IMG/VR virus record: IMGVR_UViG_2974729448_000001
Span: 67,318-101,662 of that record
Length of the DNA: 34,345 nt
Reading direction: 5' to 3' (one strand)
Source: a virus
Taxonomy: Duplodnaviria > Heunggongvirae > Uroviricota > Caudoviricetes > Crassvirales
The notes beneath the pieces are model-generated. The model was not told where the DNA came from. It made no database searches and was given only the letters and a program-made list of their open reading frames with translations. Shown piece by piece: positions 1 to 34,345 of the stretch. The position numbers and the translations under genes were made by a program. Position 1 is the stretch's first letter. Every line of letters begins with the position of its first letter.

Positions 1-3000
1 AAAATGGTTAACAAGCAAGCTATTAAAGGAGGTAGTGCAGTTCAGGTATCAGCAATGGGCATTAAAGGTTATGAGGAAGATGGAGATTTGAGATATGTTA
101 CTGACCCAAATAATCCTAATAACATATTATATGCTGAGTGTGAAATACCTTGGGACATGACCTACTCTGATGCAGATGGTGTAGAACATTCTCTTGAATA
201 TGGTGACTGGTGCAATGAAGATGGAACTCTTAAGACTGATAAAGATGGAAATGCTCTTATTGAGAAGACCTATCCTAATATCTTAAGCCTTCTTGCATAT
301 AGAATTCCTACTGAAAGAGATTACTCTATGATTAATCTAAGAGTAAAGAGGTTTAGTCATAAGATGGCTGGTGGTACTATTAAAGTTCCACCTCAGGGAA
401 CTACTATTGCAGGTTTTGACTTTGATATTGATAAGCTCTATCTTATGAGAAATGAATATCAATTCAAAAAGTTAACAGAGACTGAACTTGAGAAAGCTTG
501 GAAGGACTTTTATAAGGAACATCCTGAGTTATATAAAGAACTCTTAGAATTAAGAGGTGCAGATGAAGGAGTAGGTGACTTACTTACATCTTTGCTTGGA
601 GTAGAGGTATCTTCTAAGGATAGATTATATAAGTATAAAGAAGGGGTTACTGAGCAATTCAGGGAATGGTTAAGTTTAAGAATGGAACAGTATTCTTCTC
701 TTGATACCTATAATTTTGACAAAACTCCTCTTGAAAATAGTAAAGCTGCCAGAAATAATATGCTCATTAGTCTTATTCAGAAAAGATTAAGTGACCCTGA
801 AACCTTTGGTGACAGATACACTCCAGGTGGTTTCTCTAATGCTTCAAGAGCAGCAAGAGTTATGAGAGAGCTTTTGTTTGGTAAAGTTGAATCTTTACAT
901 GAGCAAGGTACTGTTAATCTTGATGCTATAGGAAAAGCTATTGATAATGACTTATTGTCTGACCCTGAGCCTAATTATGACCCAAGTGACCCAATGACTG
1001 TAGTAACCTATAATCAGCAGAATCAAGTTGCAGGTAAGTTAATTGGTATATTTGCCAATCAAAATACTAATCATGCCTTTGCTTCTTTAATGGAGGAATT
1101 CTATTTAAAAGAACCTATTGAATTTGCAGGTAAGAGTTATTCTGATTTATTGCATAATAATGATATAGATACAAGCTTGAATGTTGCTGAGTTCTTAGCT
1201 GCATCAGTAGATGCTGTGAAGGACCCTGTACTTAACTTCTTGAATCTTAACACTATTACTGCTGATGCAGGAGCTATGTTGGCAAGACTTGGTTTCACTA
1301 CAGAAGATATAGGTCTGTTATTTAATCAACCTATTATTAAAGATATATGTGAATACAGCTTTAATAATGGTATGTCTGATATTAACTCTGTGATAGATAA
1401 TGTATTAGACACCTATGAAGTCACTGGAGAATTAAATAAGGTAGTTCCTCAAGTTGAATTTGACAGAGGGGCATTGGCTTATAATATTGTACAGGCTGCT
1501 AATACAAATAAGAAGGAACTCCTGACAGATGATAAGTTTGTTGAGAGACAGATTCATGTAGCTGAGTTATTTAGAAAGATTCTTGAGGCAAGTAATGATG
1601 TTTCTCAGTTTGTTAGAAATACCAAATTCACTGCTTCAAATGCTGTAGGTTCTACCTTTGGTGATGCTTATGCACAACAGATGAAAGTATCAAAGTATGT
1701 TGATTCTTTCAGAAATGCAAAGAATCTTAAGGTAGAAATGAAAGTTGCCAGAGACATTAAAACTCCTCTTAATGATGACTCAGAGAATCTTACCTTAGAC
1801 AAGCAAGCCTATATGGAACACCTTCTGGAGAATCCTTTTGCTTATGAACAGGCTATGTATGATATGAATAGAAAAGCTGAGAAGCTTATCAATAAGTTCT
1901 ATCCTTATAATACACCTAATTATCATTATGCAAGGGAGACTTTAGCAGGTTTCACCAGAAGTGGAATCTTGGATGCAGAGACTATAAACAGTATTCACAG
2001 TGACTTAATGGTATTTATGTTAAGTCAACAAGAGAATAGTCTATTTAATGGTAATAGTCCTATTAGTCTTAATGATGGAAGTATGATAACTTCAAGAGAG
2101 TATTTTACTGAAGTATTCCCTGAAGAATTATTTAATACTCTTCAAGCTAATCCTGCAATGAAATCATTAGCTATATTCCAGTATATGCAGTTTCAAACTG
2201 ATGAAAAGACTGGTAAAGTAAGCATGAATATTCAGGATATAGGAGGTTTAGCACCATATCAGAAAGATGAACTTAAGGAAAGCTGGGGTGATTTAATGAG
2301 AAACCAAGATACTGCTTGGATAGCTCAATCTATGTTTCTTTATAATTATTTCAAGTTAGGCTTTACTTATAGTCCTCTTGCATTTATGAATCTGGCTCCT
2401 ATGGAGGTTAAGCTAAATGTTACTGTAGGTAATGATTATGATGGTAATCCTAAGTCCTATGTAGACTTCTTGAATGAAGTTCAAGATGGGAAGATTAGAA
2501 TAAACCATGATGAATTTGCTAAACAGTATTTACTTAACCACTTAGACAATAACAGGTTAGTATTTACTCCAAAGGGAAGAATAAAGAAACTTGTAAGTAA
2601 TCTTGCTTTTGAATATGGAGAAGCTAAAAGCAGCTTCACCATTGATAGTAGTAAGTTAGGTAAAGATGGTAACAGTTTTCTACTTCCATCCCAAGAGAAG
2701 GGTATAAATATATTTAGACCAGTTATTGTTATTGATGGAGTTCCATATATGTGTAACAGTAATGGCATTGTATTCAATGAAAGTACTTCAGGAAGTATGA
2801 CCTATTACAGGGTAAATGCTTTAGGAGAATCAGGTAAATCCTTACAGTATACCTCAAATAGTGCTACATTTGAAGCTAAGACTATTACAGAAGCTGCTAC
2901 TGAAGGTAACACTTCTGTAGAACCTGAAATATCAAATGTAACTAATGAAGTGATAAGTACTGAAGACTTAATTAAGGAAGCTACTGAACTTGCAATGCAA

Positions 3001-3138
3001 GCTGACCCATCTCTTCAAAGAGATATGGTTGTAGAATTCCTTAGTAAAGTAAGTAGGGAAGACCTGATGAGTACCATAGAGGAACTTAAGACTCAAGCTG
3101 ATAATGTAACAGACCAAGAAGGTAATAAGATTTGTTGA
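1..3138 (+). CDS. Virion-packaged DNA-directed RNA polymerase (crAss-type, two-barrel), C-terminal part; 5'-truncated by the window
   Basis: Frame is open from base 1. Contains YRIPT followed by AGFDFDIDKLY (DFDIDK at 418-435), the DxDxD Mg-binding loop variant typical of crAss-like/phi14:2 gp66-type RNAPs. Ends TGA, 1 nt before the next ATG. Confidence 0.9.
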   Translation, partial: KMVNKQAIKGGSAVQVSAMGIKGYEEDGDLRYVTDPNNPNNILYAECEIPWDMTYSDADGVEHSLEYGDWCNEDGTLKTDKDGNALIEKTYPNILSLLAYRIPTERDYSMINLRVKRFSHKMAGGTIKVPPQGTTIAGFDFDIDKLYLMRNEYQFKKLTETELEKAWKDFYKEHPELYKELLELRGADEGVGDLLTSLLGVEVSSKDRLYKYKEGVTEQFREWLSLRMEQYSSLDTYNFDKTPLENSKAARNNMLISLIQKRLSDPETFGDRYTPGGFSNASRAARVMRELLFGKVESLHEQGTVNLDAIGKAIDNDLLSDPEPNYDPSDPMTVVTYNQQNQVAGKLIGIFANQNTNHAFASLMEEFYLKEPIEFAGKSYSDLLHNNDIDTSLNVAEFLAASVDAVKDPVLNFLNLNTITADAGAMLARLGFTTEDIGLLFNQPIIKDICEYSFNNGMSDINSVIDNVLDTYEVTGELNKVVPQVEFDRGALAYNIVQAANTNKKELLTDDKFVERQIHVAELFRKILEASNDVSQFVRNTKFTASNAVGSTFGDAYAQQMKVSKYVDSFRNAKNLKVEMKVARDIKTPLNDDSENLTLDKQAYMEHLLENPFAYEQAMYDMNRKAEKLINKFYPYNTPNYHYARETLAGFTRSGILDAETINSIHSDLMVFMLSQQENSLFNGNSPISLNDGSMITSREYFTEVFPEELFNTLQANPAMKSLAIFQYMQFQTDEKTGKVSMNIQDIGGLAPYQKDELKESWGDLMRNQDTAWIAQSMFLYNYFKLGFTYSPLAFMNLAPMEVKLNVTVGNDYDGNPKSYVDFLNEVQDGKIRINHDEFAKQYLLNHLDNNRLVFTPKGRIKKLVSNLAFEYGEAKSSFTIDSSKLGKDGNSFLLPSQEKGINIFRPVIVIDGVPYMCNSNGIVFNESTSGSMTYYRVNALGESGKSLQYTSNSATFEAKTITEAATEGNTSVEPEISNVTNEVISTEDLIKEATELAMQADPSLQRDMVVEFLSKVSREDLMSTIEELKTQADNVTDQEGNKIC

Positions 3139-3139
3139 T

Positions 3140-6100
3140 ATGAAGAAATGTGTAATAATACCAAAAGTTAAAAACAAAGATGGTGAATTTGTAGATAGTG
3201 AGCTTTTTAGCTCACTACTACATTACACCAATAACAGGGAAATTGCCAAACAGTATTACTCAGTAGGTACAAGCCCTGAGTTTCTAAGTAGAGTAGGAAA
3301 TAAAGCTAAGTTTGATAAGAATGGAGAGATTACTTTCCAGTCTTTGAGACAGCTTTCTAAACTGAATCTTAACAGTGAGAATATTAAGCAGACCCTTAAT
3401 AAGGATATTAATTCAGGAGTTTATAGCTATAATGAAGCCCTGCCAAGACTTCAATCTTTCAATAGAAACAGTGAGTATAATGATAAGTATCTTGCTACTA
3501 TTATAAATAAAGAAGATGGTAAGGTCGAGTTAAAGGTAGTAGACAAGAATAATACAAGTGAGGCACAGCTTAATGATAATATAGCTAATAGAGGTCTTCA
3601 GGAAAGAATAAAATACTACTTAAACAGAGTTGGTGCAGATTATTCATTCCTTGATGCAGATGATAATGTTAATGGTAGATATAGTACTGTTAATGCAAAA
3701 AAGACTGCTGATGGCTTATATCAACTTATTAAAGTTGCTAATAATCAGGCAATAGATAGCTCACTTGCAGAAGAGGCAGGTCACTTTGCAGTAGGGGCAT
3801 TAGGAAGGTCTCCTCTTGTTAAGAGGTTGGAAAATGTTCTTAGTCCTGAAGTGCAAAAAGAAATAATGGGGGATGAGTATGACTCTATTGCATACAGAAG
3901 TAATCCTGCAAGAGAAGTTGCTGGATATTTGGTAGGTAGAGCTATTAATGGTGAGATAGATAAAAGAGCACCTTGGCAGGCTTTAGTAAATAGAGTAGTC
4001 AATCAGATTAAAAGAGTATTTGCAGGAATAAAAGGAGATGAAATATCTAAAGCCAAGTTAGATGCTGTACAAACAGCAGAAGCTATAGCTAAAGGATTTA
4101 TGTCCCCTAATTTCCAAGGTTCTGTAGAAGAGGCTCTTAATACTAAGGAAACTCTTTATAGTGCCAGAGATTCAGTGAATGTATCAGCCTTTAAATCAGT
4201 TCTTAATGTTCTTAAGCAACAGGCATCAGAGATGAGAGCTATAAATAAGGACTTATACAAAAAATATAATCTAATTGAAGGTCAGGTTGAAGCAGGTAGA
4301 ATTACTTCTAATCCATCACTATTTGCTGATATTGTAGCTGTTGAAGGTATAGTTGAAGCAGTAGATTTAATGGTAGACAATATACCTGAGATGGTTAAAA
4401 AGCTTGATAGTATTGACTTTACCATATCAAGTATTACTCCTGAAAATGCCTCTATATTAAGAGAGGTTGCCACTTTTGTAGAAAATGCTGAAGCTATAAT
4501 TAGTATAATTGAAGATGCTACAACTGAAGAAGATTCAAGGCTAAAGTTACAGAATGTAACTGAGCCTATGATGGATAAGCTAAAGTCACTGAGAAAAGGT
4601 CTGAATGAAGCCATCAATGGGGATAATAGATTACTTGGCAATTTAAAGGTTAAGCAAAGAGAATTCTTCCTTAAGTTCTTGGAAGATGCAATGGGTTCTA
4701 ACTTTGTAGAGAGGTCATCAAGAGTTATCTTTGACTGGAAAAAAGGTCAAAGAGGTCTTAAATGGGTTAGTGCTGAAAAGGTTCCTATTGAAGACTTACT
4801 AAGATATATGGACAAAGATATTACCATATATGAATCTCTTATTGCTTCTATGTCAAACAATTCAGATGTAATTGGTCAGTTAGCAGACAGGGCAGTTAAA
4901 TTAGCTAATAAATATGCTGATGATATGACTATCCAGTCTCAAGACAGATTGAGGAATCTTAAAGCTGACCTTAATGCTATTGGATTAAAGAATACTGATG
5001 TATTTTGTGAGGTAAGTCCAAGAACTGGAAAATTGACAGGCAATATTGTTTCAGAATATGTATGGGGAGATTATGAAGATGATTGGCTTAACTTTAAGAA
5101 GGAGGCAAAGGAAAGATTCCTGAGTAACAATAACCTTGAAGGAAAATCTGAAACTGAGAAAAGTATATTATGGGATATTGAGTTTGGACCACAAGCTAAA
5201 AGCTGGCATAAGCAACATTCAGCATGGAATGAAGCTGCTCAAAGATACTATCCAAATGATAAGTATAAGAGTACTCAGTATCAACAAACTATTGCTGGAA
5301 CCCCTAAAGAAGGATGGTTAAACAAGTACATGTCATTCAAGACAGAGCTTGATGGATTCTTGCCTGAAGGTAGTACTAATTCAGTTAGAATGCCTCAATT
5401 CAAGGGTACTACCATGAATAAAATCAGAAATAGAAGACTTACTGAAGGTACTGGAAAGTCAGTAGTTTATACACTAAGAAGAAACCTTGCTGATACATTT
5501 GTTGAAGATAGTGAAGACAGGGATTTTGGAAGTGACCAGACTTATAATACTATAGAGGAAGACATGTTCTCAAATCAACTTGAATTTGAGGAAGAAAAAT
5601 TAAATAGAGTTCCAATCTATGGTATTAATAAATTAAAAGATAGTGCTGAACTTAGTACTGACTTATTTCAATCTACTCTGGCATATGCTGGAATGGCACA
5701 TACCTATGCAGCTATATCTAATGTAGCAGGTACTCTTGAAATAGGAAAGGATGTCCTGAAGAGAAGAATAATAGGAGGAATTAAGCCAGAGAATAAAAGA
5801 AGTGAGACTTCAAGGGCTTACAAAAGATTCCAAAAGTTCTTGGATAAACAAGTATATGGTATAAATACTACTAAGATTAAGATTGGAAATAAGATAGTCT
5901 TAAATAAAGTGGTAGGATTTTTCACTGGACTTGCATCTAAGTTCTTCTTAGGAGGTAATATAACTGGTGGTGCAGTCAATCTTGGAACTGGTTCTCTTGA
6001 AATATTCAAAGAAGCTCTTGCAGGAGAATATTTCAGTATTAAGGATTGGGAAAGGGCTAATCTTATCTATTGGAAAAACCTTCCATCAAATTGGCTTCAT

Positions 6101-7255
6101 GCAGGAGATGATGTCAAAGAAGACAAAGTAAGTCTGTTCATAAGACATATGAATATTCTAAATGAGAATAAGAAGAAAGAAAGGGAATTCTATACTAATA
6201 AATCAAAGTTGGTTAAGCTTAATCCAGTAGGAGAGAATTTATTCTTGCCTTATAAATGTGGAGAACATTATATGCAAACCATGGCTTTTTTAGCTACTGC
6301 AAATGGAACCAAACTTATAGATGAGAATGGAAATCCTATTAGTTTATTTAATGCTTATGAAGTAGTTCCATCTGATGATGAAAGACCTGAACTTGGAAAG
6401 ACTTTAGCTCTAAAAAGAGGAGTTAAATATGTAGATGAAGAGACTGGAGAAATAAGAGATTGGAGCATTGATGATGAATCAAGATTCATGGATAGGGCAA
6501 GAGAAATAAATAATAGAATGCACGGTATTTATAATACTCAAGATAAAGTAGCAATACAGCAGAATGTATATGGTAATGCTTTACTTGCCATGAGGGGTTA
6601 TGCTTTAGGTATGCTTCAAAGAAGGTTTGGAGTAAATGCTTATAGTGTAGCTTTAGGTGGTGAAACTGAAGGTTCTATTAGGACTCTTGCTAAAGTTATA
6701 GCCTCAACCTTTACTGATAAAGGAGGATTTAAGCTGACTGCAAGAGCTATATTTCTTCCTGTTAATAAGAATACTCAACAGATGATGCTAAATGCTGGTT
6801 TCTCAGCCAATCAGTATTATAATATGAGAAGAAATTGGGCAGATATGGCAGTAATTGCTGCTTTAACTCTTCTTAAATTACTTACTGCTAAACCAGATGA
6901 CGATGATGATGAGGAAGAAGACCAAGCTATGGGTATATTATACTATGCAGCAAGTAGATTATACTCTGAACAGGCAGCATTTAATACTCCTTGGGGCTTT
7001 GTTAAAGAAGCTCCAGTAGTTACTAATATATCTCCAGTAGGATTTAGTCTTGCTCAAGACTTAATTAATATTGCAGACTTATTTATTACTCAAGAGGAGT
7101 ATAAATCAAGTGGTTCTACTTATGAAAAAGGAGACCTTAAATGGCAACATAAAGTAGAAAGATTATTACCTTATTACAGAAGTTATCTTATGATGCAGAA
7201 TCCATATCAAGCAGCTCAGAGTTATCAATATGGTAGAGCAAATCTTACCAAGTAG
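3140..7255 (+). CDS. Large ejected/internal virion protein (1371 aa) with a degenerate zincin-like motif
   Basis: Long helical ORF coupled to the RNAP gene. AEEAGH (3767-3784) plus a downstream REVAG resemble an HExxH...E zincin site. The C-terminal part has hydrophobic/Gly-rich helices typical of internal virion proteins. Ends TAG. Confidence 0.7.
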   Translation: MKKCVIIPKVKNKDGEFVDSELFSSLLHYTNNREIAKQYYSVGTSPEFLSRVGNKAKFDKNGEITFQSLRQLSKLNLNSENIKQTLNKDINSGVYSYNEALPRLQSFNRNSEYNDKYLATIINKEDGKVELKVVDKNNTSEAQLNDNIANRGLQERIKYYLNRVGADYSFLDADDNVNGRYSTVNAKKTADGLYQLIKVANNQAIDSSLAEEAGHFAVGALGRSPLVKRLENVLSPEVQKEIMGDEYDSIAYRSNPAREVAGYLVGRAINGEIDKRAPWQALVNRVVNQIKRVFAGIKGDEISKAKLDAVQTAEAIAKGFMSPNFQGSVEEALNTKETLYSARDSVNVSAFKSVLNVLKQQASEMRAINKDLYKKYNLIEGQVEAGRITSNPSLFADIVAVEGIVEAVDLMVDNIPEMVKKLDSIDFTISSITPENASILREVATFVENAEAIISIIEDATTEEDSRLKLQNVTEPMMDKLKSLRKGLNEAINGDNRLLGNLKVKQREFFLKFLEDAMGSNFVERSSRVIFDWKKGQRGLKWVSAEKVPIEDLLRYMDKDITIYESLIASMSNNSDVIGQLADRAVKLANKYADDMTIQSQDRLRNLKADLNAIGLKNTDVFCEVSPRTGKLTGNIVSEYVWGDYEDDWLNFKKEAKERFLSNNNLEGKSETEKSILWDIEFGPQAKSWHKQHSAWNEAAQRYYPNDKYKSTQYQQTIAGTPKEGWLNKYMSFKTELDGFLPEGSTNSVRMPQFKGTTMNKIRNRRLTEGTGKSVVYTLRRNLADTFVEDSEDRDFGSDQTYNTIEEDMFSNQLEFEEEKLNRVPIYGINKLKDSAELSTDLFQSTLAYAGMAHTYAAISNVAGTLEIGKDVLKRRIIGGIKPENKRSETSRAYKRFQKFLDKQVYGINTTKIKIGNKIVLNKVVGFFTGLASKFFLGGNITGGAVNLGTGSLEIFKEALAGEYFSIKDWERANLIYWKNLPSNWLHAGDDVKEDKVSLFIRHMNILNENKKKEREFYTNKSKLVKLNPVGENLFLPYKCGEHYMQTMAFLATANGTKLIDENGNPISLFNAYEVVPSDDERPELGKTLALKRGVKYVDEETGEIRDWSIDDESRFMDRAREINNRMHGIYNTQDKVAIQQNVYGNALLAMRGYALGMLQRRFGVNAYSVALGGETEGSIRTLAKVIASTFTDKGGFKLTARAIFLPVNKNTQQMMLNAGFSANQYYNMRRNWADMAVIAALTLLKLLTAKPDDDDDEEEDQAMGILYYAASRLYSEQAAFNTPWGFVKEAPVVTNISPVGFSLAQDLINIADLFITQEEYKSSGSTYEKGDLKWQHKVERLLPYYRSYLMMQNPYQAAQSYQYGRANLTK

Positions 7256-7324: not shown

Positions 7325-10300
7325 TTATTCTAAACACTCCTTCTGGTGTTTCTTTTCTTCCTCAGACATTTCATTCCAAGATTCTTTAGTATAGCCCATT
7401 ATAACAGCAGCCTGCCTTATTTCATCACTAATTGACTCCCAATTGTTTGATGAAGGAGTGATAAGTTGTACTTTCTTAGCAGGTTTAGCAAACCTATTTT
7501 TAACTTTACCCATCTTCAAACCTAAGTTCTTATTTATAGTACTCTTTGGTTCAGGTACTTCTACCTTCTCAACTACAACTTCTGCTGGTAACATATCAGT
7601 AATAATCTGTTTCTCACTATCAGTTAACTTGTCATATTGAATATTCACATCAGTAAATGGAACTGAACCTGTCTCTTCAAGTACAGGCTTAGCATCTTTA
7701 TACTCCTCATCATTAGCAAGTAACTGATTACCTGATGATACTTCATACTTAACCTTTCCATTTCCAAAACCAAAGGGAGTAGGATAAGTAACATTAATAG
7801 GTATAATATTAAGTGAAGCTACTTTAACACCATACTTATCTTCAAGGAACTTTTTATACATTGATACCTGTTTAGCATACTTCTCCTTTTTCTCTTCACC
7901 TATTCCACTTCTATTAGTCTTCATATCAAAGATATGGAAGTTACCTTGAGCATCATAAGCAAGTAAGTCAAGAGTTCCTGCTACTGGTATATTATGTACT
8001 TGACCTTTATCATCCTTTACTTCAATAGTTCCTGTAACAGTCACATCTCTTGGTATAATAGTTAAACCTTTACTATCAAGTGCTTTTTTGAGACCTACTA
8101 ACTGTTTAGCAAAAGTTTTCCATTGCCCTTGACTTGCATTAGGATAATCAAACTCATAGTCATTTAACAGCTCTCCATTCTCATTAAAGAACTCTCCTGC
8201 AAAGAAATCTCTGACAAATTCATCTACACCAGTCCCTATATTAGTTGAAGGTACAATCCAAGGACTATTAGGGTCAAATCTTTCTCCTGCATTTTCATCA
8301 GCCTGAATAATAGAAGTAACCCTTGCATACCTGATACCTTCTTCATTTATATAACCAGAACCATCATCAGCTAATTTGATATTCTTACTATCTTCAACTA
8401 TCCTGTCAGCTATTTCTTTAGCCTTTTCTACAGCAGGATTGATTATAGGTTTAACTTCACCTTGTAGAATGGAACCAGATTCACTGTCAACTATAGCATC
8501 ACCAACTTTAACTTGGTCAGTAGCTGTGATAACTGGAGTATTAAGTGGCTTGCCTTGTGTAGCATTATTAGGATTTGAGACTACTGGAGTAGGAGAAACT
8601 CTAACACCTTCCTGTGAGAAAGGACTGTTAATTTCAACTCCTCTTATAGTATATTTCAGTGATTCTCTACTTGACTCAAGTATATTATCATTGAATATAT
8701 CATTAATATTGGAAAGTCTCATCTTCCTTGCTTCATCAGACTCACCTTCTTTAGTATTGAAGTCGTTATAGTTAACCTGCCATTTTGCAAATGGCTGACT
8801 TCCTTCATATCTAAAGCTTCCATTACTAAGTATCAAGTTTCTTATAGTTTGAGCTTTAGTAGTATCAGTCATTATACCATTAGTTACTTCTGCAAGTGGT
8901 ATGGTATTAGTACCATTACTAACAGATAACTGATACATTCTGTTACCTTCAACTATATTATCAGTAGGAGTTAATGTATACTCATAACCTTTTGGAAGTG
9001 CTATAAAGTTATTCAACTTCTTACCTAAGCTCTCTGCTATAGAGCTTAACTTAGTAGCAGTTTCTGCTGTAGGAATTAATACACCATCTTCTCTTTTAAA
9101 CCTCATTTCTTGGTCAAAAGGAGCCTTTTTAAATGTATCTTCTAAAGTCTTTGTATATCTGGATATCCTACTATTAGCTAAAATTACCTCTTCAGGAGAA
9201 CCAGAATTGAGTACCTCAGCTATAGGTTTACCACTTCTTGATACAGAATTTTGAGGAGTTGCTACATATAATTCAAACTCCTGTTCTCCACCCTTCATAT
9301 TTGAAGTTACATAAGCAAGATGAATTCTTTCCTTTTTGGCATCCTTAGAAATTCTCTGTATCTTGGAAAGTATAGAATCCTTAGCTTTCTTATATATAGC
9401 CTGTCTCTCTGCCATTGGAGTATTTAAATCATCCATTTTAGCTCTTTCAGAGGCATCCATATCATTTCTCATTATCTGATGGATAAGAGTATTAGGAGTT
9501 CCAGCTTTAGTATGTGCAGGAGGATTAGCTCTTACATAACCATTAGTAGTAACTACTTTACCATCCTTATCTTTTATTAACTGACCATCCTGTTGAGTTA
9601 TAGCTAACTGTCTTATTGGATTCATTCTTGCTGCTCCTTGTGTATTTGCACTTGTTCTTGGCATAAATCCAATAGGCTGGTATTTCTTATTACCTAAAGT
9701 AATAGGACCATTAGTATCTTCTACAACTGCCATGATAGGTAGATGGTCTTCTTCATTATAAACATCAGCCAGCTCTTGCTTAGTGCTATTTACAATAGCA
9801 GGGTCAGATATAAACATTATAGGAGTTTTAGGAGTTATAGAACCTTTTCTAAGATACTCTCCTATTCCAAAACTTCTATAAGCCTGCCCCACAGTAGAAT
9901 TAGGATGATTTTCAACCTGAGCTGTAATTATAAGACCATTATTCCTCCTAAGCTCAACAGTCATATCAGGAGTAGAAGCTACTTCCTTCTTAACATTTTG
10001 CTTAGGCTCTTCTTTGACTTCTGTCTTCATTTTTACTGCTACTTGCTTTAATAATGAAGCAGTCTTGTCAAAGGTATCTCCCCCCTTATCTGATTGAATT
10101 TGAAGCTGAAGAGCTTTATTTATTAAAGCTTCACTTAAGGTTGAAGGATTCTCATATTCACTGTCCCCAAGTTCATCCAATATTTGTTTTACCTGAGGCT
10201 TAACCTCATCATAAACAGAAGAGGATTTATTAATAGTTTCTAAAGCATTTGATGCAGCTTGAGCCACTTCATCATTGCTATTAGTCTTATACTTATCAAT

Positions 10301-14045: not shown

Positions 14046-15455
14046 TTAATCCAATCCTATGTTTACATCAAAGCTATTATTAGTGGGAGTTACAGGAGCT
14101 AAAGGTTGTGTAGGAACATCCTGTTTAGGTATCAATACATAATCATAGTCTCCAATAGCTCTACTTCCCTCTGCCTTAACTCTAACTACATTATAAAAAC
14201 TAAGGTCAATATTCTGGTCTTTAGCTGTCTTAAGCATTTCATCCAAAGCTCCCTTAGGTATCTCATTGTAGTTAGTAACTATATCACTCTTATTTACATT
14301 ATCCATTGTATAATTACCCCATCCAGAAACAGCATTACTTCTTGTCATTCCAAACAAAGTACCTTTCACATCTTTACCTTCAGTTCCAGTTCTCCATTTT
14401 CCATTGGTATTTGCAATAATGATTGGGGTATCCCCCCTCTTAGCTGCTTCTTTAATACCAGCACCAGCTATTCCACTATTTCCAGTATAATTCTCAACTC
14501 TTCCATCTGGATAAATTCTCAATGCCTTTCCTCCACCAATAACTCTGATAGTAGAACCATCTTGAAGAGGAATAGTTGATTTATCTTTATTTGCTTGTTC
14601 CTTAGCAAATTCAAATCTTTCTTTTTCCATTGCAAGTCTTGCAGCTTCTGCTGGACTCATAAAGCTTCTATTAGCTTGAGTATCATATCTTTGAGTTCCA
14701 ATTGCTTCATATAATCCTGCATTTATATAGTCTCTTGCTCTTGATTGAGTTCTTTCATCCCATGTATCAAGACCTGCCTCTTTATATACAGTATCAGCAA
14801 TTTGTCTAAGTTCAGCAGGAGCATTGGGATCATTCATAACTGTCTGCATTATCTGCTGTGGGGTATATCCCATTTGTTGCATTTGCTGATAGTACTGACT
14901 ACCAAGTATTGACCTGTATTGTGGATTTGATTGAATAGTTTTAGCTAAATTCTGAGCCATCTGAGCTGACCTTTTAGTTAATTCTGTACCACTTATTGTG
15001 TTATAAGTAGCATTAGGATTATTAATAAGGTCATCTAAAGATACCATTCCATAATTAACATCAAACATTAAAGATGGGTCTTTCTGAATAGCATCTCTTT
15101 GAGCTTTAGTCAATTCTTCTCTTTTTGATAAAGCAGCTTCAATGGGAACTATTTCTGAACTATACCTCTTTTTCATTTCCAGTAGTCCCTGTCTACTTCC
15201 AGGAGTCAATCCTTGTTTAGCTAATGACTCAGCTTGTTTAGCTAAGTCATCAGAATATTGTTTATACATTGCATAAGTCTTAGGGTCTGTCTGTTCATTA
15301 GCAAGTTTTTCAAATACCCCTGCCTTAGTACTTAACTCTCCCATTCCTTCCTGTATAGTATTATACTCATTAGTATAAGCCTGTAGTGGCTGTAACATTT
15401 CCTGATAAGAGAATGGTCTGAACTTAGCACCACTAACAAAGTTAAAATTAGCCAT
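14046..15455 (-). CDS. Putative cargo/ejection protein (469 aa)
   Basis: Lies between cargo 1 and the giant cargo protein and overlaps the upstream stop. Helical, Q/M-rich, no Cys. Function inferred from synteny. Confidence 0.6.
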   Translation of the reverse strand: MANFNFVSGAKFRPFSYQEMLQPLQAYTNEYNTIQEGMGELSTKAGVFEKLANEQTDPKTYAMYKQYSDDLAKQAESLAKQGLTPGSRQGLLEMKKRYSSEIVPIEAALSKREELTKAQRDAIQKDPSLMFDVNYGMVSLDDLINNPNATYNTISGTELTKRSAQMAQNLAKTIQSNPQYRSILGSQYYQQMQQMGYTPQQIMQTVMNDPNAPAELRQIADTVYKEAGLDTWDERTQSRARDYINAGLYEAIGTQRYDTQANRSFMSPAEAARLAMEKERFEFAKEQANKDKSTIPLQDGSTIRVIGGGKALRIYPDGRVENYTGNSGIAGAGIKEAAKRGDTPIIIANTNGKWRTGTEGKDVKGTLFGMTRSNAVSGWGNYTMDNVNKSDIVTNYNEIPKGALDEMLKTAKDQNIDLSFYNVVRVKAEGSRAIGDYDYVLIPKQDVPTQPLAPVTPTNNSFDVNIGLD

Positions 15456-17907: not shown

Positions 17908-20900
17908 TCACACATTATAATGAACCATTATATCATGTAATTCTGCTCTATAGTTGTTCTTACATATATTTGATAATTTTATATAAGCCCATGTATTTCT
18001 GATTCTATCCCTTCCATTAGCACTATCTCTTGGAACCAAAGCTCTCCATACATTAAACTTCTTCTTTAAGTTTGAAGAAGTAGCCTCATTCATACTTAAC
18101 ATAGATAGACCAGACTGATATTCATTCCATACCTCAAGTTTGTCAAATGAAGTCAGTGGCATAAATACTCCTGACTGGTCATAGAAATCAGCTCTATACT
18201 CAACTACATTAAATATCTTATCATAAGGTTCATCAGGATTACATACTACAGTAACATAATATGGTTTAGGCTCTCCATAAAAACTGTTATAGTCTCCAAG
18301 TTCATGTTGCCATATTGTATTATTCTTATAACTATAGAAATTACCATTCATATTAAACATGAAAGGAACATTTTCATAGTTAAAAAATGAAGTAAACTCC
18401 TGAAGAAGTTCTGAATAGCATAGACAGATATCCTTCTTTATAAAGTAAACATCATCATTTGTAGCATCATATTGTATTATGTAATTTGAAAAGTCTCTGC
18501 TATTCCACTCAGTAAGTGAATTAGTCTCACCAATAAAAGTTCTAAAGCCCTTCTCAGATGATATACTACTTAATTGTTGACCATTAAACAACATTATATC
18601 ATTAGTTATATTATCTATGAAGTACATTCCTGATGGAGTTATAGTCTTAGCCCATTTATTTTGTAGTCCATGTGCTATTGTAACATACCTTTTTCCATCT
18701 ACTTTATAACTATTACTTATCTCAATAGGCACTCCTTCAGATGTAGGAATCTGAACTCTTGAATTAAATAATATATTAGCTATACCTTTATCTTGAAAAG
18801 AGAATATCTCATTACCTAACTTTTCAAGTAGTCTTAATTCTCCTTTATCTCCATCTAAATCAAGTGTAGATGCAACAGTTATATTAGTCCATGTATCAGT
18901 TACCTCACCAAGTAACTTAGTCTTAGTCCATGTTACACTATTTGGGAAATAATCTATATTATACCTATTGTAATTTATGCTTCTATAGTTAAAGAAATTA
19001 TTCTTCTGTGAATAAACAGGATTAAGAAGATTAAAGTTCTGAGGAGTCATTACAAGGTTATTAGCTTGACCTCTATTCCTATCATACCTTCCATCTATAT
19101 TAATTCTTGTTTCACACATAAATGACATAATCTCAACTACACTATTCTGGTCTTCCAAAGTAAATGGGTAAGTCTTCAAACAATCATATCTCTGAAAATA
19201 AGTATCACCTTCATTATATATGATTCTTGCAGATGTAACAACAGCACCACTATCATTTGTAAGATTAACTACTGGACCAGCAGCAACCCATCTATTAGCC
19301 TCAAGTGCCTCTTCAGAAGTACCACCAAACCTGTTTATTACATTATCATTATATAATTCACCTATCCATAGTCCTGCTGAAGTTGCCCCTGAAATAATAT
19401 CCTGATAAATTGGAAGAGTCTCTGTAGTTGGGAATGAGTCTAACCACACAGGAGGAATATTCACATCTACTCCATTAATGGCAGTTGATATAGGATTATT
19501 CCCATTATCTGGAAGAATAACCTGCTGACTTTTTGAAGTATAATTGAATGCAAATACAGCATGTGGAGTTGACTTGTATTTCACACTAATAGGCTCAGTA
19601 AAATACTTCATATTGCTATTAGTTATCTCTTTTATGTTATATGTAGAAACAACTGTGCTATTAAATATAGTGTTGTAGTCTCCATTTTCATAACCTGAAC
19701 CATTATTCCATCCTGCAAGCCAGATTGTATATCCCTTATTATCAATATAATCCCCATAGAATCCAGGAGCAAGAATCCTATCAACATTACCATAGTAATT
19801 TAAGTTTCCAAGACCTGAATTAGTAGGAGGATTAATCTTAATCAGACTTACTTCATTAGAGTTGAATATATTCACATTAGTAATACCATTATGATTTGCA
19901 TCATCTCTTTCAGCATACCATACCTTATCTATATCAAAATAAGTTGTTGAAAGAGAGTATCTAAGATTGGATAATTTCTTCTGTTTAAGTTTTGCAGGAA
20001 TCTTTTCATTCTCTGCAACATTTCCTACATTGACAAGTGACCCATTTCTATGCCAAGGATATACCATCCAACCTACTGGAAAGGAAAATAAATTATTTGC
20101 ATCTTTCTTTCCTTTAGCCATCCATAGAGGAGCTGCACTTAGAATCTTCCATCCATCTTCATTCCCAAGTGAAGAGCTCGTAACTTGTATAAAAGGTTTA
20201 TACATTCCCAAGTCAGATGGGTCTGGATTAGGAGTCTCTGCAAGCACACTTACATCTGACTGTAAAGCATCTAAACTTATAACTCCTACAATTCTAAATT
20301 TAACTGACTGACCATCAATAGACTGTAATTCATCATTAAATTCTATATCAGGTGAATGGAAGGTTACTATATTTTGGTCTATAACAAATTGGTCATCATA
20401 AGGACTTACATAATTAAGCCTTTCCTGAGTTGATGAGAACTTCTTATATGAACTGAATAATCTATTAATATAATCATTACTTTGTACCTCACCACCCTTT
20501 CTGTTTGCACTAGCTAATGTATAGTTATGTATATTAGCTACTGGACATGGTACTTTATCCCAATCTTGAGAGTTCATACTGTTAGGTGCAAAAGGTCTAA
20601 AGAACCATGAAGATTGTGCATATGGAGAATTGTTTATTCTATCCTTTATATTTGCTACTGTAGGACATACAACACCCTGACATAATATAGTCCTGTCACT
20701 TGGCGAAGGATATACTACAATACCTCTTGCTCTTACATAGCCTAAATTAACAAGCTGCTGGATTATTGTAGCATTATTTAAGTCATAATAACCTGTTACA
20801 AGCTTATATCTTTCCTTTCCTCCAGAAGTTGCAACATTTATAACTGAAGGATGTTGATTTACAACTGAATCATTAATGAATATAGCCTCAGACCACTTTC

Positions 20901-22044
20901 CAGTTTTATGTTGAAATTGTACTCCAAACCTGTAAGTCTCACCATATTTAAATGTAGTAATCTGCGATGAAGAAAATTTAAGCTGATTTATATAAGGGTA
21001 AGTTCCATAAACTTCATTTGCATATAAATCTTTGGTACTAAAGTTTATAGTACCTCCTCTTAGTGCATTCTTAATTGTAGGAGTAACTAATTTTCTGTTA
21101 ATCTTATAATTACCTAAGAATAAAGTATTATCCTTCTGGGTCATAGTCTTAAATACTACATCCTCCCCTCCTACATATAATAGTTCTGTTGGGTCAATAC
21201 TACTTCCTGTAGTGTTAGTGTCTACATAACTTACAGTACTTCCACTGATAACAATATCAGCTACATTCTTAACTACAGGAGTTGCATCTATTGAAGTCCT
21301 ATATATGGAGTATAATCTTATGTATTCAAAACTTGTATCTACATTTGATAACTGTATTCTAAATGAATTACTTACCTTATCTTCGGGAGACCCACCTCTA
21401 TCACCAAAAGAAGTATATAGAAGGTCTGAAGTGGCAAATATATTACTCTCCTGCCCATACTTATTAAAGTAGGTCATTGCATACTGAATAACTCCGGGGG
21501 CAAACAGTCCATTGGCTGTATCTATTCTACTGACTTTCAAGGTTTCCTTTAACCCAAGAACCTGAACAAAGTCAAAAGAGTTATTAGTATATTTAGAAGT
21601 ATCTGCTATAATATTTATTACCCTTGGTCTGTTTAATCCATCAGTCCAGTATATCTTCTGAATATTATCATTCTCATATATACTTAAGGCTTCAATAGGG
21701 TATTCCACATTGAAGCCAAGATTACCTTGAAACAATAACTTGCTTTCAAAGAAGTTATTTGGTTTATATTCAAGTCTGTATATTCTGTCTGTGCCTGAAT
21801 TTGTAGTAAATATAACCACATAGTTATTTAGAATGGCACTTCCTAAGTATTGTCCTTCTATTTGGGTAGGAGTTATAGTAACCTCCTTGTTACCTTTTTC
21901 ATTTGTTACTGAAAGGGCAGTGGAGTTCTCTCTTGCAGTTATTCTAATATTCATTGCATCATACATATAATTATTAGATAACTTACTTTTAGAGATATCC
22001 CTGTTCATCCCTTTTGGTATAAATTGTACTACTTTAGATTCCAT
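17908..22044 (-). CDS. Muzzle / tail stabilization protein (P22 gp10-like beta-propeller), 1378 aa
   Basis: N-terminus QFIPKGMNRDISKSK...DAMNIRI and repeated beta-strand blades (IYWTDGLNRPRVINI). C-terminal KKFNVWRALVPRD...RIRNTWAYIKL. Sits after a ring gene, and the size matches recalled crAss muzzle proteins. Confidence 0.8.
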   Translation of the reverse strand: MESKVVQFIPKGMNRDISKSKLSNNYMYDAMNIRITARENSTALSVTNEKGNKEVTITPTQIEGQYLGSAILNNYVVIFTTNSGTDRIYRLEYKPNNFFESKLLFQGNLGFNVEYPIEALSIYENDNIQKIYWTDGLNRPRVINIIADTSKYTNNSFDFVQVLGLKETLKVSRIDTANGLFAPGVIQYAMTYFNKYGQESNIFATSDLLYTSFGDRGGSPEDKVSNSFRIQLSNVDTSFEYIRLYSIYRTSIDATPVVKNVADIVISGSTVSYVDTNTTGSSIDPTELLYVGGEDVVFKTMTQKDNTLFLGNYKINRKLVTPTIKNALRGGTINFSTKDLYANEVYGTYPYINQLKFSSSQITTFKYGETYRFGVQFQHKTGKWSEAIFINDSVVNQHPSVINVATSGGKERYKLVTGYYDLNNATIIQQLVNLGYVRARGIVVYPSPSDRTILCQGVVCPTVANIKDRINNSPYAQSSWFFRPFAPNSMNSQDWDKVPCPVANIHNYTLASANRKGGEVQSNDYINRLFSSYKKFSSTQERLNYVSPYDDQFVIDQNIVTFHSPDIEFNDELQSIDGQSVKFRIVGVISLDALQSDVSVLAETPNPDPSDLGMYKPFIQVTSSSLGNEDGWKILSAAPLWMAKGKKDANNLFSFPVGWMVYPWHRNGSLVNVGNVAENEKIPAKLKQKKLSNLRYSLSTTYFDIDKVWYAERDDANHNGITNVNIFNSNEVSLIKINPPTNSGLGNLNYYGNVDRILAPGFYGDYIDNKGYTIWLAGWNNGSGYENGDYNTIFNSTVVSTYNIKEITNSNMKYFTEPISVKYKSTPHAVFAFNYTSKSQQVILPDNGNNPISTAINGVDVNIPPVWLDSFPTTETLPIYQDIISGATSAGLWIGELYNDNVINRFGGTSEEALEANRWVAAGPVVNLTNDSGAVVTSARIIYNEGDTYFQRYDCLKTYPFTLEDQNSVVEIMSFMCETRINIDGRYDRNRGQANNLVMTPQNFNLLNPVYSQKNNFFNYRSINYNRYNIDYFPNSVTWTKTKLLGEVTDTWTNITVASTLDLDGDKGELRLLEKLGNEIFSFQDKGIANILFNSRVQIPTSEGVPIEISNSYKVDGKRYVTIAHGLQNKWAKTITPSGMYFIDNITNDIMLFNGQQLSSISSEKGFRTFIGETNSLTEWNSRDFSNYIIQYDATNDDVYFIKKDICLCYSELLQEFTSFFNYENVPFMFNMNGNFYSYKNNTIWQHELGDYNSFYGEPKPYYVTVVCNPDEPYDKIFNVVEYRADFYDQSGVFMPLTSFDKLEVWNEYQSGLSMLSMNEATSSNLKKKFNVWRALVPRDSANGRDRIRNTWAYIKLSNICKNNYRAELHDIMVHYNV

Positions 22045-31534: not shown

Positions 31535-31560
31535 AATTTTCTCCCTAATTATTAACTGAC

Positions 31561-31593: not shown

Positions 31594-31646
31594 TATGGTA
31601 ATTAAGATGCTTTAGATTGTATAAATAAAACCCTTATTTACTGAAC

Positions 31647-31682
31647 AAAAGAAAAGGTGTAATAACAAGTATTACACCCTCT
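31647..31682 (-). terminator. Intrinsic terminator closing the four-gene cassette
   Basis: Minus strand GGGTGTAATA-CTTGT-TATTACACC-TTTTCTTTT. Confidence 0.85.
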
Positions 31683-31688
31683 CAATCA

Positions 31689-32345: not shown

Positions 32346-32347
32346 AG

Positions 32348-32725
32348 TTATTTAGCAGTTAATAATTCCTTGAAACCTTCTAAGTCCTGCCCATTAAATA
32401 CTAAACTTTTATTTGTTAATGGTATATTGAGTTTAATTGTCCCTCCTCCAATATTAATGTCTCCCATAAATGGGGTCTTGAAGGTGAATGGTTCAGTAGT
32501 CATGACTGATTCTATCATTTCAGATAAGATAGCTTCAACATCTATTTCACCATTTTCATCTGCAATAAGCTCAAGTGTTTTGTTTATTTTGCTGAGATTC
32601 TTGTCTAATGCTCTTGTAATTAAAGGCTTAGTAAAGCTAATCATAGGATTTGTCTTTGCTACAGCTTCAATTTGAGTACCAAGGAATGTCTTTAATCTAT
32701 TTGTCAGTTGGGGTATAGTTACCAT
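32348..32725 (-). CDS. Hypothetical protein (cassette gene C), 125 aa
   Basis: Intact ORF with 2-nt spacings to both neighbours. Amphipathic N-terminal helices and a beta-rich C-terminus. Confidence 0.7.
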   Translation of the reverse strand: MVTIPQLTNRLKTFLGTQIEAVAKTNPMISFTKPLITRALDKNLSKINKTLELIADENGEIDVEAILSEMIESVMTTEPFTFKTPFMGDINIGGGTIKLNIPLTNKSLVFNGQDLEGFKELLTAK

Positions 32726-32727
32726 AA

Positions 32728-33237
32728 TTACATATTAGCTTTAATAAATTCTTCATAGGTTACATTAGGGTTAGATTTACTAAACTCTCTGAACCTTCTA
32801 AACATCTCCATCTCTTTATTAGTAGTATCAATTATCTTACCTTTTAACTTTTTTACTATCTTAAGTTGATGTGTTAATAGGTCTTTACCTTCCTGAGTAC
32901 CCTCAATTCTACCCTTCACAAGGTTTAGAATTTCAGCTTGTACAAGACCTTGTAGCTTATTATAAGTATCTACATAGTCTTCATCTTGAAACAGCATATT
33001 CTTTTGTTCATCTGTCATAGGCTCTATCTCTGAATCTATATCATCCCAGATTAACTTCTGAGGAGGCTGTTGTACTTGGGGTTGGGTCATTTGTTGCATT
33101 CTTTGTTGCTTTGCATTTTCAAGTAGCTGTTTCTGTTTCTCAAGAAACTGAATTTGCTCCTCAATATTACTTCCAACAGAAGTTGTACTTAATAATGGGT
33201 CCCCTCCCCCTAATATTACTTGATTTACTGGAAACAT
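32728..33237 (-). CDS. Hypothetical Gln-rich coiled-coil protein (cassette gene B), 169 aa
   Basis: Intact ORF with a QQRMQQMTQPQVQQPPQ linker between helical segments. Confidence 0.7.
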   Translation of the reverse strand: MFPVNQVILGGGDPLLSTTSVGSNIEEQIQFLEKQKQLLENAKQQRMQQMTQPQVQQPPQKLIWDDIDSEIEPMTDEQKNMLFQDEDYVDTYNKLQGLVQAEILNLVKGRIEGTQEGKDLLTHQLKIVKKLKGKIIDTTNKEMEMFRRFREFSKSNPNVTYEEFIKANM

Positions 33238-33264
33238 AATTAAAACAAATAAAAGTTAGTATTT

Positions 33265-33293
33265 AAAAGAAAGGGGAGAATTAACTCCCCTTT
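33265..33293 (-). terminator. Intrinsic terminator after cassette gene A
   Basis: Minus strand AAAGGGGAG-TTAATT-CTCCCCTTT-CTTTT. Confidence 0.8.
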
Positions 33294-33299
33294 AATTTA

Positions 33300-34076
33300 T
33301 TAAGCAGTAGGAGTAGCAGGAGCAGTTACTATTCTTGGGCAACCACATTGATTGGCTCCTACATAGCCAGTTATAGTAGGTTCATTAGGAAGACAAACCT
33401 GACCATAGATTACATTACAAGTCTTTCTATCAGTGTAATTAATACCAGCAGTAAATGCCTTATCAATCTCACATTGGATTAACTTATCTTGGTAAGGTCT
33501 TACAGCAGCATTAATAGCTACCTGAGCCTTCAAGTCAGATAGTTCTTTCATTATGCTGTCATCTGCATCTCTCTGAGATTTATATAGATTGAATGAATCT
33601 CTATTATGTTGAGCAGTCAATACATCAAATCCATCTCTTGTAGACTTGTACAAACCAAAGTCTGCATCTACTTGACTCTTATAGATACCAAATAATTCTT
33701 GGTCAATAGTTTGTCTATCTTGGAATCTTTGATTTTGTTGAGTCAATGCCCACTGATAAAGACCTCCTTGAAGTGCAAGAACATCTTCACATTCTTTCAT
33801 CTGAACCTCATATGCAGATGGACAATTTCTGCTACCTCCTGCCATTCCAGTTTCAAGACCATTGATGTTAATATTAGCACCACCAAGTCCAGAACCCAAG
33901 CCACTACCACCTAACAGACCAGCTCTTCTATTACCAAAGAGTGCCCATGCACCAAGAGCAGTACCAATGATACCCAATGTCAAACCTGCATTGGCTTTAC
34001 CATTAATATCTCTCTTATTAGGACCATAATAACCATCTTGATGTTCTACAATCTTTTCTTTTTCAATAATTTCCAT
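33300..34076 (-). CDS. Hypothetical protein (cassette gene A): Gly-zipper helix, 11-residue repeats, Cys-rich tail, 258 aa
   Basis: ANAGLTLGIIGTALGAWALFG hydrophobic Gly-zipper, GS-rich linker, repeats FGIYKSQVDAD / FGLYKSTRDGF / FNLYKSQRDAD, and a C-terminal CNV...C...QCGC. Confidence 0.75.
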   Translation of the reverse strand: MEIIEKEKIVEHQDGYYGPNKRDINGKANAGLTLGIIGTALGAWALFGNRRAGLLGGSGLGSGLGGANININGLETGMAGGSRNCPSAYEVQMKECEDVLALQGGLYQWALTQQNQRFQDRQTIDQELFGIYKSQVDADFGLYKSTRDGFDVLTAQHNRDSFNLYKSQRDADDSIMKELSDLKAQVAINAAVRPYQDKLIQCEIDKAFTAGINYTDRKTCNVIYGQVCLPNEPTITGYVGANQCGCPRIVTAPATPTA

Positions 34077-34127
34077 AATACCTGAAATTAATTGTTTTTA
34101 ATAATTTATCTATCTCTGTAAGCTTAC

Positions 34128-34165
34128 ACTGCTAAAGTTATGTAAATTATCTCAGGTATCATAAC
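34128..34165 (-). promoter_or_regulatory. Possible degenerate promoter for the cassette
   Basis: ACTGCTAAAGTTA differs from the ACTGCAAAGTTA of the MCP promoter by one inserted T (minus strand TAACTTTAGC). No clear -33 TTG. Confidence 0.35.
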
Positions 34166-34171
34166 ATTACT

Positions 34172-34206
34172 AAAAAGCCCCATAACTATTTAAGTTACAG
34201 GGCTTT
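34172..34206 (-). terminator. Intrinsic terminator upstream of the cassette
   Basis: Minus strand AAAGCCC-TG-TAACT-TAAAT-AGTTA-TG-GGGC-TTTTT: 14-bp stem with G-U pairs followed by a U-run, just after the stop at 34231. Confidence 0.7.
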
Positions 34207-34230
34207 AATTTAGCATTATGTTACTAATGC

Positions 34231-34345
34231 TTAACTATCAAATGCTATTGAATCTTTTCTTCCTTGATGTCTATAGAATACATCAACTATTTTATTATAT
34301 ATGTATGTTATGACATAAGCATCAATTTCATCATTATCTCTTTGT
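34231..34345 (-). CDS. C-terminal fragment of a gene entering from the right edge
   Basis: My own translation of the minus frame from 34344 gives QRDNDEIDAYVITYIYNKIVDVFYRHQGRKDSIAFDS*, with TAA at 34233-34231 followed by a terminator. Below the ORF-track length cutoff. Confidence 0.5.
   Translation of the reverse strand, partial: QRDNDEIDAYVITYIYNKIVDVFYRHQGRKDSIAFDS

What the first reader, a model, noticed from the sequence alone, without database searches (positions are those of the whole stretch)
1..34345. Near-total elimination of the CpG dinucleotide across 34 kb
Seen: reading by eye I found only about 14 CG dinucleotides (3526, 6523, 6901, 8764, 17254, 20179, 20704, 20965, 21384, 21495, 23963, 25785, 26286, 31351); I may have missed a few. 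GpC is abundant. None of these is a CGN Arg codon, and most fall at codon junctions, so codon bias alone does not explain the deficit. At roughly one-third GC (eyeballed), on the order of 900-1000 CGs would be expected. Established: depletion this deep is known where a CpG-specific C5 methyltransferase drives deamination (Mollicutes with M.SssI/M.MpeI-type enzymes) and in viruses under CpG-sensing pressure. Inference: the phage or its Bacteroidota host carries a CG-targeting modification or defence activity, or the phage is selected against CpG sensing in the mammalian gut (e.g. TLR9).
Basis: partly seen in the sequence, partly recalled or inferred. Interest (0 to 1): 0.75.

Follow-up and report, generated by a model that had tools for sequence, protein, structure and literature searches.

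The report
CG-purged gut crAss-like phage genome
This human-gut phage has lost about 98% of its CG letter pairs because natural selection keeps removing new ones, as in its whole clade and in a separate freshwater phage clade, which points to a still unidentified activity that reads plain CG in phage-infected bacteria.

Summary
Confirmed: 14 CG against 997 expected (o/e 0.014); whole 101.7-kb genome 92 against 2,839. The phage is a Steigviridae member (Kehishuvirus; capsid 98% identical to cr112_1). The purge covers codon junctions, Arg codons, spacers and tRNA genes, regardless of flanking bases.

It reflects selection, not methylation decay. On trees, new CGs appear at 0.10x the control rate, transversion gains included, and are lost only about 4x faster. 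Conserved arginines use CGN in 2/614 cases against 137/395 in unpurged relatives. No methylase or deaminase was found.

TLR9 is not supported: an FpV4-like Flavobacterium clade is equally purged while largely keeping restriction palindromes, and other gut phages keep CG. Other phages of three host species keep CG, so the trait follows phage lineage.

My best guess (about 40%) is phage-encoded. One candidate, imperfectly correlated, is a RecB/Cas4-like nuclease domain in the injected cargo protein (window 7610-8389).

The scan noted this purge before in other crAss-like genomes; I found no paper on it.

The parts
1..34345 (.). CG-purged region, part of a genome-wide purge: 14 CG at 3526, 6523, 6901, 8764, 17254, 20179, 20704, 20965, 21384, 21495, 23963, 25785, 26286, 31351
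   Evidence: The window is G000:67318-101662 of a 101,662-bp record with direct terminal repeats.
1..3138 (+). 3' part of the large virion RNA-polymerase-associated gene (2246 aa, begins before the window); 0 CG in the window part
   Evidence: cr112_1 homologue annotated putative RNA polymerase; RNAP tree
3140..7255 (+). RNA-polymerase-associated cargo protein, 1371 aa (crAss001 gp49 size class); 3 CG, all at codon junctions
   Evidence: virion cargo list in PMC10172136
7325..14044 (-). Virion cargo protein, 2239 aa (matched to crAss001 gp47 by size, position and homology); 1 CG in 6.7 kb
   Evidence: gp47 detected in virions by mass spectrometry, PMC10172136
7610..8389 (-). PD-(D/E)XK nuclease domain (RecB/AddA/AdnA/Cas4-like) in the cargo protein, aa ~1886-2145, catalytic-type motifs DLL, DMK and Q..Y present; candidate CG reader, untested
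   Evidence: PHROG 298 exonuclease E 1e-5; Pfam PDDEXK_1 21.7 bits, cut-off 22; model pLDDT 60; Foldseek Cas4-family ACE1 E 4e-5; VIA Z 10.4, rmsd 3.6, 179 aligned to AdnA
17908..22044 (-). Tail stabilisation/structural protein, 1378 aa; holds 5 of the 14 CGs and the only CTAG (20510)
14828..14831 (.). The only GATC in the window; marks the separate, ordinary restriction-site purge
   Evidence: GATC and CTGCAG are methylated motifs in all five Bacteroides-group species studied, PMC10333322
28839..30350 (-). Major capsid protein, 503 aa, 0 CG; 98% identical to cr112_1 (Kehishuvirus splanchnicus), 90% to crAss001

Best explanation
Shown: ongoing purifying selection removes the bare CG step from the phage genome. 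It acts in genes, spacers and tRNA genes, about equally in all gene modules, nearly independent of flanks, with a weak cost per site (scaled strength S about 3.5-4.4). Inferred: it acts on DNA rather than RNA, and the agent is an inefficient CG-reading activity that travels with the phage lineage. Most likely this is a phage-encoded nuclease-type factor that attacks CG-containing host DNA during takeover, so that the phage marks its own genome as self by lacking CG. The best candidate found is the RecB/Cas4-like domain of the injected 2239-aa cargo protein; its specificity is unknown. Selection itself I put at about 0.9; the confidence given is for the phage-encoded reader.
For: Selection: tree fit on synonymous junction sites gives gain 0.10x (95% range 0.08-0.14) and loss 4.2x; pure hypermutation is worse by 95 log units, and a one-parameter selection model (S 3.7) fits within 0.1. 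Replicated in the FpV4-like clade, gain 0.03-0.05x. Transversion gains suppressed: 2/338 vs 21/589 and 2/723 vs 17/617. Conserved Arg CGN 2/614 vs 137/395. Spacers 5 vs 110, tRNA genes 7 vs 58. Nearly all core families lie at 0.02-0.09, two at 0.11-0.12. Flank effects are under about twofold apart from CCG/CCGG. Lineage link: B. cellulosilyticus tikkala 0.02 and frurule 0.05 vs jaberico 0.58; B. thetaiotaomicron DAC15 0.02 vs ARB14/SJC12 1.36; F. psychrophilum FpV4 0.065 vs 6H 1.09. B124-14 lacks CTAG, GGCC and CGCG yet keeps CG at 1.17. No bare-CG methyl motif in the readable part of the Bacteroides methylome table. crAss001 shuts off host transcription genome-wide at 10-30 min (PMC8375218). 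[quoted passage not shown]
Against: No enzyme tracks the purge cleanly. The cargo nuclease domain also occurs in unpurged relatives (cr108_1 0.51, Dulem 41 0.38, cr55_1 0.63, G060 0.36), was not found in purged G053, and the FpV4-like clade has only a weak standalone match (E 1e-4 to 1e-6). RecB/AddA-type domains usually read little sequence (own knowledge). Values form a continuum from 0.02 to 0.7. The unrelated B. thetaiotaomicron phage DAC16 is also depleted, 0.13-0.23. Within the gut clade CG co-varies with host restriction motifs (Spearman 0.4-0.6). Only a few independent phylogenetic contrasts exist, and the tree model ignores recombination.
Confidence: 0.4

Rival explanations
1. A host-encoded, undescribed defence in Bacteroidota reads unmodified CG with low efficiency per site. 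It hits large virulent phages (crAss-like, DAC16) but spares temperate or small tailed phages and the chromosome by some means other than CG methylation.
For: Convergent depletion in the unrelated DAC16 from the same host species. CG co-varies with GATC, CTAG and GGCC in the gut clade. Virulent phages purge sites more than temperate ones (PMC6286503). CCGG is 2-5x better tolerated, and CCGG-core motifs are methylated in some hosts. No shared phage enzyme was found.
Against: Phages of the same three host species keep CG. B124-14 purges restriction sites but not CG. No bare-CG methyl motif that would protect the host was seen. The FpV4-like clade purges CG while largely keeping palindromes.
Confidence: 0.33
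2. No reader: CG steps carry a small intrinsic cost in crAss-type transcription, replication or packaging (for example polymerase pausing), seen by selection in proportion to population size.
For: Most crAss-like relatives show a mild deficit (0.26-0.72, S 0-1.1), the small non-crAss phages of the same hosts do not, and S about 3.7 is codon-bias-like.
Against: The purge does not follow RNAP type: purged phages carry very divergent RNAPs, and those of Dulem 41 (0.38) and G047 (0.34) nest among them. Capsid, replication and other genes are equally purged, so there is no sign of an expression effect. No pause-type flank signal out to 14 bases. cr118_1 has 0.96.
Confidence: 0.13
3. Summed avoidance of many ordinary CG-containing restriction sites across the host pan-methylome.
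For: The same genome clearly purges known host motifs GATC, CTGCAG and CCWGG; CG-containing motifs occur in the host table.
Against: All NCGN contexts, palindromic or not, are depleted alike and CCGG least. The host motif lists hold many motifs without CG. B124-14 loses only CGCG. CG is decoupled from palindromes in the FpV4-like clade and DAC15.
Confidence: 0.07
4. CpG-specific C5 methylation with deamination (M.SssI/M.MpeI type) erodes CG by mutation.
For: Precedent in Mycoplasma penetrans (cited in PMC11282364); slight TpG/CpA excess of 1.08; NCG codons are lost somewhat faster than the selection model predicts.
Against: Gains suppressed tenfold, loss only about 4x where 30-50x is needed; transversion gains suppressed; conserved Arg avoids CGN; no C5-MTase, N6/N4-MTase or dCMP-type deaminase found.
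Confidence: 0.04
5. Selection by mammalian CpG sensing (TLR9) in the gut.
For: The deepest purge among Steigviridae is in the gut clade.
Against: 80 FpV4-like loci are purged, most at 0.03-0.14; their cultured members infect Flavobacterium psychrophilum. Gut phages cr108_1, cr118_1, crAss002, B124-14 and ARB14 keep 0.5-1.4. No TLR9-type flank preference.
Confidence: 0.02

Closest known systems
Restriction-site avoidance in virulent phages (Rusinov et al. 2018, PMC6286503)
   Same: Selective, synonymous removal of a short word from a virulent dsDNA phage; this genome also shows the ordinary form (GATC, CTAG, GGCC, CTGCAG).
   Different: The word is a bare dinucleotide, flank-independent, 60-300 copies are tolerated, no cognate host methyl motif is known, and phages of the same host species keep it.
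CpG loss in Mollicutes with M.MpeI/M.SssI (Wojciechowski 2013, as cited in PMC11282364)
   Same: Deep, context-free CG deficit.
   Different: Here gains are blocked rather than losses much accelerated, and no C5-MTase is encoded.
T4 endonuclease II (denA) host-DNA degradation (PMC2764454)
   Same: A phage nuclease with loose specificity attacks host DNA while the phage's own DNA is exempt.
   Different: T4 is exempt through hydroxymethyl-C, and EndoII conserves one C:G base pair, not the CG step. This genome has no GIY-YIG gene; exemption here would be by sequence alone.
CpG suppression in vertebrate viruses (ZAP, TLR9)
   Same: Selection against CG as a non-self mark.
   Different: These sensors are vertebrate-only (PMC11282364); the purge also occurs in Flavobacterium phages and is absent from many gut phages.

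Membership tests
Steigviridae, Kehishuvirus | Major capsid protein and gene order match | tested here: met
   98% to cr112_1, 90% to crAss001; syntenic structural block
CpG methylation-deamination decay | C5-MTase encoded by the phage | tested here: not met
   No PF00145 hit over cut-off in this genome or 53 related records
CpG methylation-deamination decay | Normal CG gain with 30-50x faster loss by transition | tested here: not met
   Gain 0.10x, loss 4.2x; hypermutation worse by 95 log units; FpV4-like clade likewise
CpG methylation-deamination decay | CGN retained at constrained arginines | tested here: not met
   2/614 vs 137/395 in unpurged relatives
CpG methylation-deamination decay | 5mCG present on phage or host DNA | not testable with these tools
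   No modification data for this phage; host table read only in part
Type II restriction-site avoidance | Depletion confined to a 4-8 bp site | tested here: not met
   All NCGN contexts depleted; flank effects small. Met separately for GATC, CTAG, GGCC, CTGCAG
Type II restriction-site avoidance | Cognate methyl motif in the host | tested here: inconclusive
   No bare CG motif in the stored, truncated table of PMC10333322; B. intestinalis and B. cellulosilyticus are not covered
Type II restriction-site avoidance | Shared by other phages of the same host | tested here: not met
   jaberico 0.58, ARB14/SJC12 1.36, 6H 1.09, B124-14 1.17; DAC16 is a partial exception
Vertebrate CpG sensing (TLR9/ZAP) | Restricted to viruses exposed to mammalian sensors | tested here: not met
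   FpV4-like clade purged; several human-gut phages not
RecB/Cas4-like PD-(D/E)XK nuclease (cargo domain) | Fold and catalytic motifs | tested here: met
   Invariant D141, D155, K157, Q174, Y178 in alignment A3; fold matches AdnA, AddA, Cas4 family
RecB/Cas4-like PD-(D/E)XK nuclease (cargo domain) | Nuclease activity and CG preference | not testable with these tools
   Needs a biochemical assay
Phage-encoded CG reader | A gene whose presence tracks the purge | tested here: inconclusive
   No family tracks it cleanly; changed specificity or analogous genes are not excluded

The most novel reading that the evidence does not exclude
crAss-like phages use the absence of CG as a self mark: a phage-encoded, possibly virion-injected RecB/Cas4-like nuclease cuts CG-containing host DNA, and the phage genome has been recoded to escape it. 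This would be self/non-self discrimination by dinucleotide content with no base modification, reached in at least two clades.
Probability: 0.2. Interest if true: 0.9.

Novelty: new variant of a known kind. Interest (0 to 1): 0.62.

Why it matters
Something selects against a two-letter DNA word in abundant human-gut phages and in a distant Flavobacterium phage clade, and no known bacterial or phage system explains it. It is directly testable: crAss001, DAC15, tikkala, frurule and FpV4 are cultured, each genus of host has a cultured phage that keeps CG as a control, and the per-site selection estimate (S about 3.7) says that hundreds of added CGs, not a few, are needed to see an effect.

Tried and rejected
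C5-MTase, N6/N4-MTase, dCMP-type deaminase and GIY-YIG searches of the genome: none (one sub-threshold PF00145 hit, 12 bits). Ubl-E2-JAB-E1 cluster: the only homologous genes shared by both purged clades and absent from 8 unpurged genomes, but carriers with CG 0.51-0.89 exist (L478-L480, L484) and IAS and G022 are purged with remnants only, so rejected as cause. UDG: catalytic motifs the same in purged and unpurged phages and degenerate in FpV4-like ones. The 174-aa gene after UDG: clade-specific, no family or fold match. The vWA gene: no link. RNAP type does not track the purge. Rerouting test (new CG converted at once to TG/CA): full rerouting rejected in both clades, half rerouting not excluded in the gut clade. 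Host chromosomes were not obtained, so the host CG level was not measured here. Ten literature searches found no paper on CG loss in Crassvirales; subscription papers are not searched. Sequence search of the nuclease profile against the PDB gave nothing.
Full report
Observation. The window has exactly the 14 CG listed, against 997 expected (rho 0.014; GpC 1.02). It is the last third of a 101,662-bp record with direct terminal repeats; the whole genome has 92 CG against 2,839. In the window, 9 CGs are at codon junctions, 5 are NCG codons and none of 472 Arg codons is CGN; shuffling synonymous codons gives 299 +/- 13 junction CGs against 9. Genome-wide the figures are 38 against 760, and 11 CGN of 1,201 Arg. 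Spacers (5 vs 110) and tRNA genes (7 vs 58; most T-loops read TTCAA) are purged too.

Identity. The capsid protein is 98% identical to cr112_1 (Kehishuvirus splanchnicus, Steigviridae) and 90% to crAss001 of Bacteroides intestinalis. The window holds the RNA-polymerase-associated cargo genes, tail and capsid genes.

Two separate signals. GATC, CTAG, GGCC, CTGCAG, CAGCTG, ATGCAT and CCWGG are also depleted. GATC, CTGCAG and CCWGG are documented methyl motifs of Bacteroides-group hosts (PMC10333322), so this part is ordinary restriction-site avoidance. The CG purge differs: all NCGN contexts are reduced alike, flank effects out to 14 bases are mostly under twofold, and only CCG/CCGG is 2-5x better tolerated, in mirror-image form on the two strands.

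Distribution. 74 loci of the gut clade have a median of 0.04; crAss001 0.03, DAC15 0.02, tikkala 0.02, frurule 0.05, IAS 0.09. On the capsid tree the deep purge is one clade with partial reversals (0.28-0.48); Pipoluvirus (0.31-0.72) and the phi14:2 side (0.26-0.72) are only mildly low. A second, distant clade around Flavobacterium phage FpV4 (capsid 26% identical) is purged as deeply, most loci 0.03-0.14, while most members keep GATC, CTAG and GGCC at 0.3-1.2. Same-host-species controls keep CG: jaberico 0.58 (B. cellulosilyticus), ARB14 and SJC12 1.36 (B. thetaiotaomicron; one lineage), 6H 1.09 (F. psychrophilum, temperate); B124-14 (B. fragilis) has 1.17 yet lacks CTAG, GGCC and CGCG. One unrelated large B. 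thetaiotaomicron phage, DAC16, is partly depleted, 0.13-0.23. This pattern contradicts TLR9 and ties the trait mainly to phage lineage. Isolation hosts need not be natural hosts, and I did not measure host chromosomes.

Mutation or selection. On per-block trees for three gut clusters, synonymous TG-to-CG gains at junctions run at 0.10x control (95% range 0.08-0.14) and losses at 4.2x. A pure hypermutation model needs about 32x loss and is worse by 95 log units; a one-parameter fixation model with S 3.7 fits within 0.1. NCA-to-NCG sites give gain 0.18x and loss 9.8x. In stretches under 1% diverged, CG differences are already tenfold rarer than controls and existing junction CGs are 96% shared. 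Transversions that create CG are suppressed too (2/338 vs 21/589; 2/723 vs 17/617), which deamination or biased G:T repair cannot do. At 72 conserved Arg columns, purged gut genomes use CGN 2 of 614 times, unpurged ones 137 of 395; deamination cannot turn CGN into AGR. The FpV4-like clade replicates the result (gain 0.03-0.05x). Caveats: recombination is ignored, rows are related, and confidence ranges are from a coarse grid.

Nature of the cost. Core gene families are purged about equally whatever their module, and a relative carries 74 CG in one 3-kb, probably acquired, stretch. With 60-300 sites tolerated, the cost per site is small; an efficient cutter would not leave such a gradient. Spacer and tRNA depletion, evenness across modules and strand symmetry favour a DNA-level effect, but untranscribed DNA could not be isolated, so this is an inference.

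No C5-MTase in this genome or 53 related records, and no N6/N4-MTase, deaminase or GIY-YIG gene here. No bare-CG motif appears in the readable part of the host methylome table. Across 26 whole genomes, the only homologues shared by both purged clades and absent from unpurged ones are a Ubl-E2-JAB-E1 cluster, but carriers with CG up to 0.89 exist. UDG, RNAP type and a clade-specific 174-aa gene were rejected. The remaining lead lies in the window: the 2239-aa cargo protein (equivalent of crAss001 gp47, found in virions; PMC10172136) has a PD-(D/E)XK domain at 7610-8389 with conserved catalytic-type residues, folding like AdnA, AddA and Cas4-family nucleases (Z 10.4; model pLDDT 60). An injected nuclease meets host and phage DNA together, and crAss001 shuts down host transcription at 10-30 min (PMC8375218). 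But the domain is also in unpurged relatives, was not found in one purged genome, and is only weakly matched in the FpV4-like clade. It is a candidate, not a result.

Verdict. Real, selection-driven, clade-wide and independently repeated; mechanism open. Odds: phage-encoded reader 0.40, host defence 0.33, intrinsic cost 0.13, summed R-M avoidance 0.07, deamination 0.04, TLR9 0.02. It works like motif avoidance but fails the tests for ordinary restriction-site avoidance, methylation decay and vertebrate CpG sensing. Earlier scan notes reached 'selection, reader unknown' on other crAss-like genomes; they are not independent support. New here are the rate estimates, the conserved-Arg test, same-host controls in three species, the FpV4-like clade with decoupled palindromes, and the tested candidate list.

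Noticed in passing
window:7610-8389 (-): RecB/AddA/Cas4-like nuclease domain inside the virion cargo protein (crAss001 gp47 equivalent), conserved across most Steigviridae outside the phi14:2 side; in IAS and Pipoluvirus it sits in a different large protein. The two crAss001 papers read call gp47 only RNA-polymerase-associated.
   Followed up: partly
L156:9376-14347 (G000 43376-48347): Ubl-E2-JAB-E1 cluster between primase and UDG, shared with FpV4-like phages. Pipoluvirus and the phi14:2 side lack it and instead carry amidoligase, GATase and ATP-grasp genes plus GroEL, so two protein-ligation kits appear mutually exclusive.
   Followed up: partly
L156:9376-10579: The Ubl gene is interrupted by an HNH endonuclease gene directly after the KKIKSG motif, possibly an intron.
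   Followed up: no
window:1-14044: The RNA-polymerase cargo block is DAC15/frurule-type (67-73% identity) while cr112_1, 98% identical in the capsid, shares only 22-29%: a module swap.
   Followed up: partly
L174, L175 (DAC16, 178 kb): A non-crAss B. thetaiotaomicron phage with CG o/e 0.13-0.23 and GATC about 0.1.
   Followed up: partly
L092, L173, L501, L093: CCGG is over-represented (1.9-2.6x) in B124-14, ARB14, SJC12 and Dulem virus 41 and is the best-tolerated CG context in purged phages, while CCAG/CTGG is low; this may reflect very-short-patch repair in the hosts.
   Followed up: no
L135-L139 (G016), L457-L460 (G047): Two Steigviridae relatives read through TAG (coding density rises under table 15).
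   Followed up: no
L412:4394-4930 (-) and homologues: Several FpV4-like phages carry a degenerate UDG lacking the catalytic motifs.
   Followed up: no
L156:2546-3721: The gene whose relatives are annotated 'HKD family nuclease' scores as a superfamily-2 helicase in Pfam.
   Followed up: no
L157:7465-7971: DUF1599 (nucleotide modification associated domain 1) gene near DNA polymerase and ThyX; also in unpurged cr108_1.
   Followed up: no
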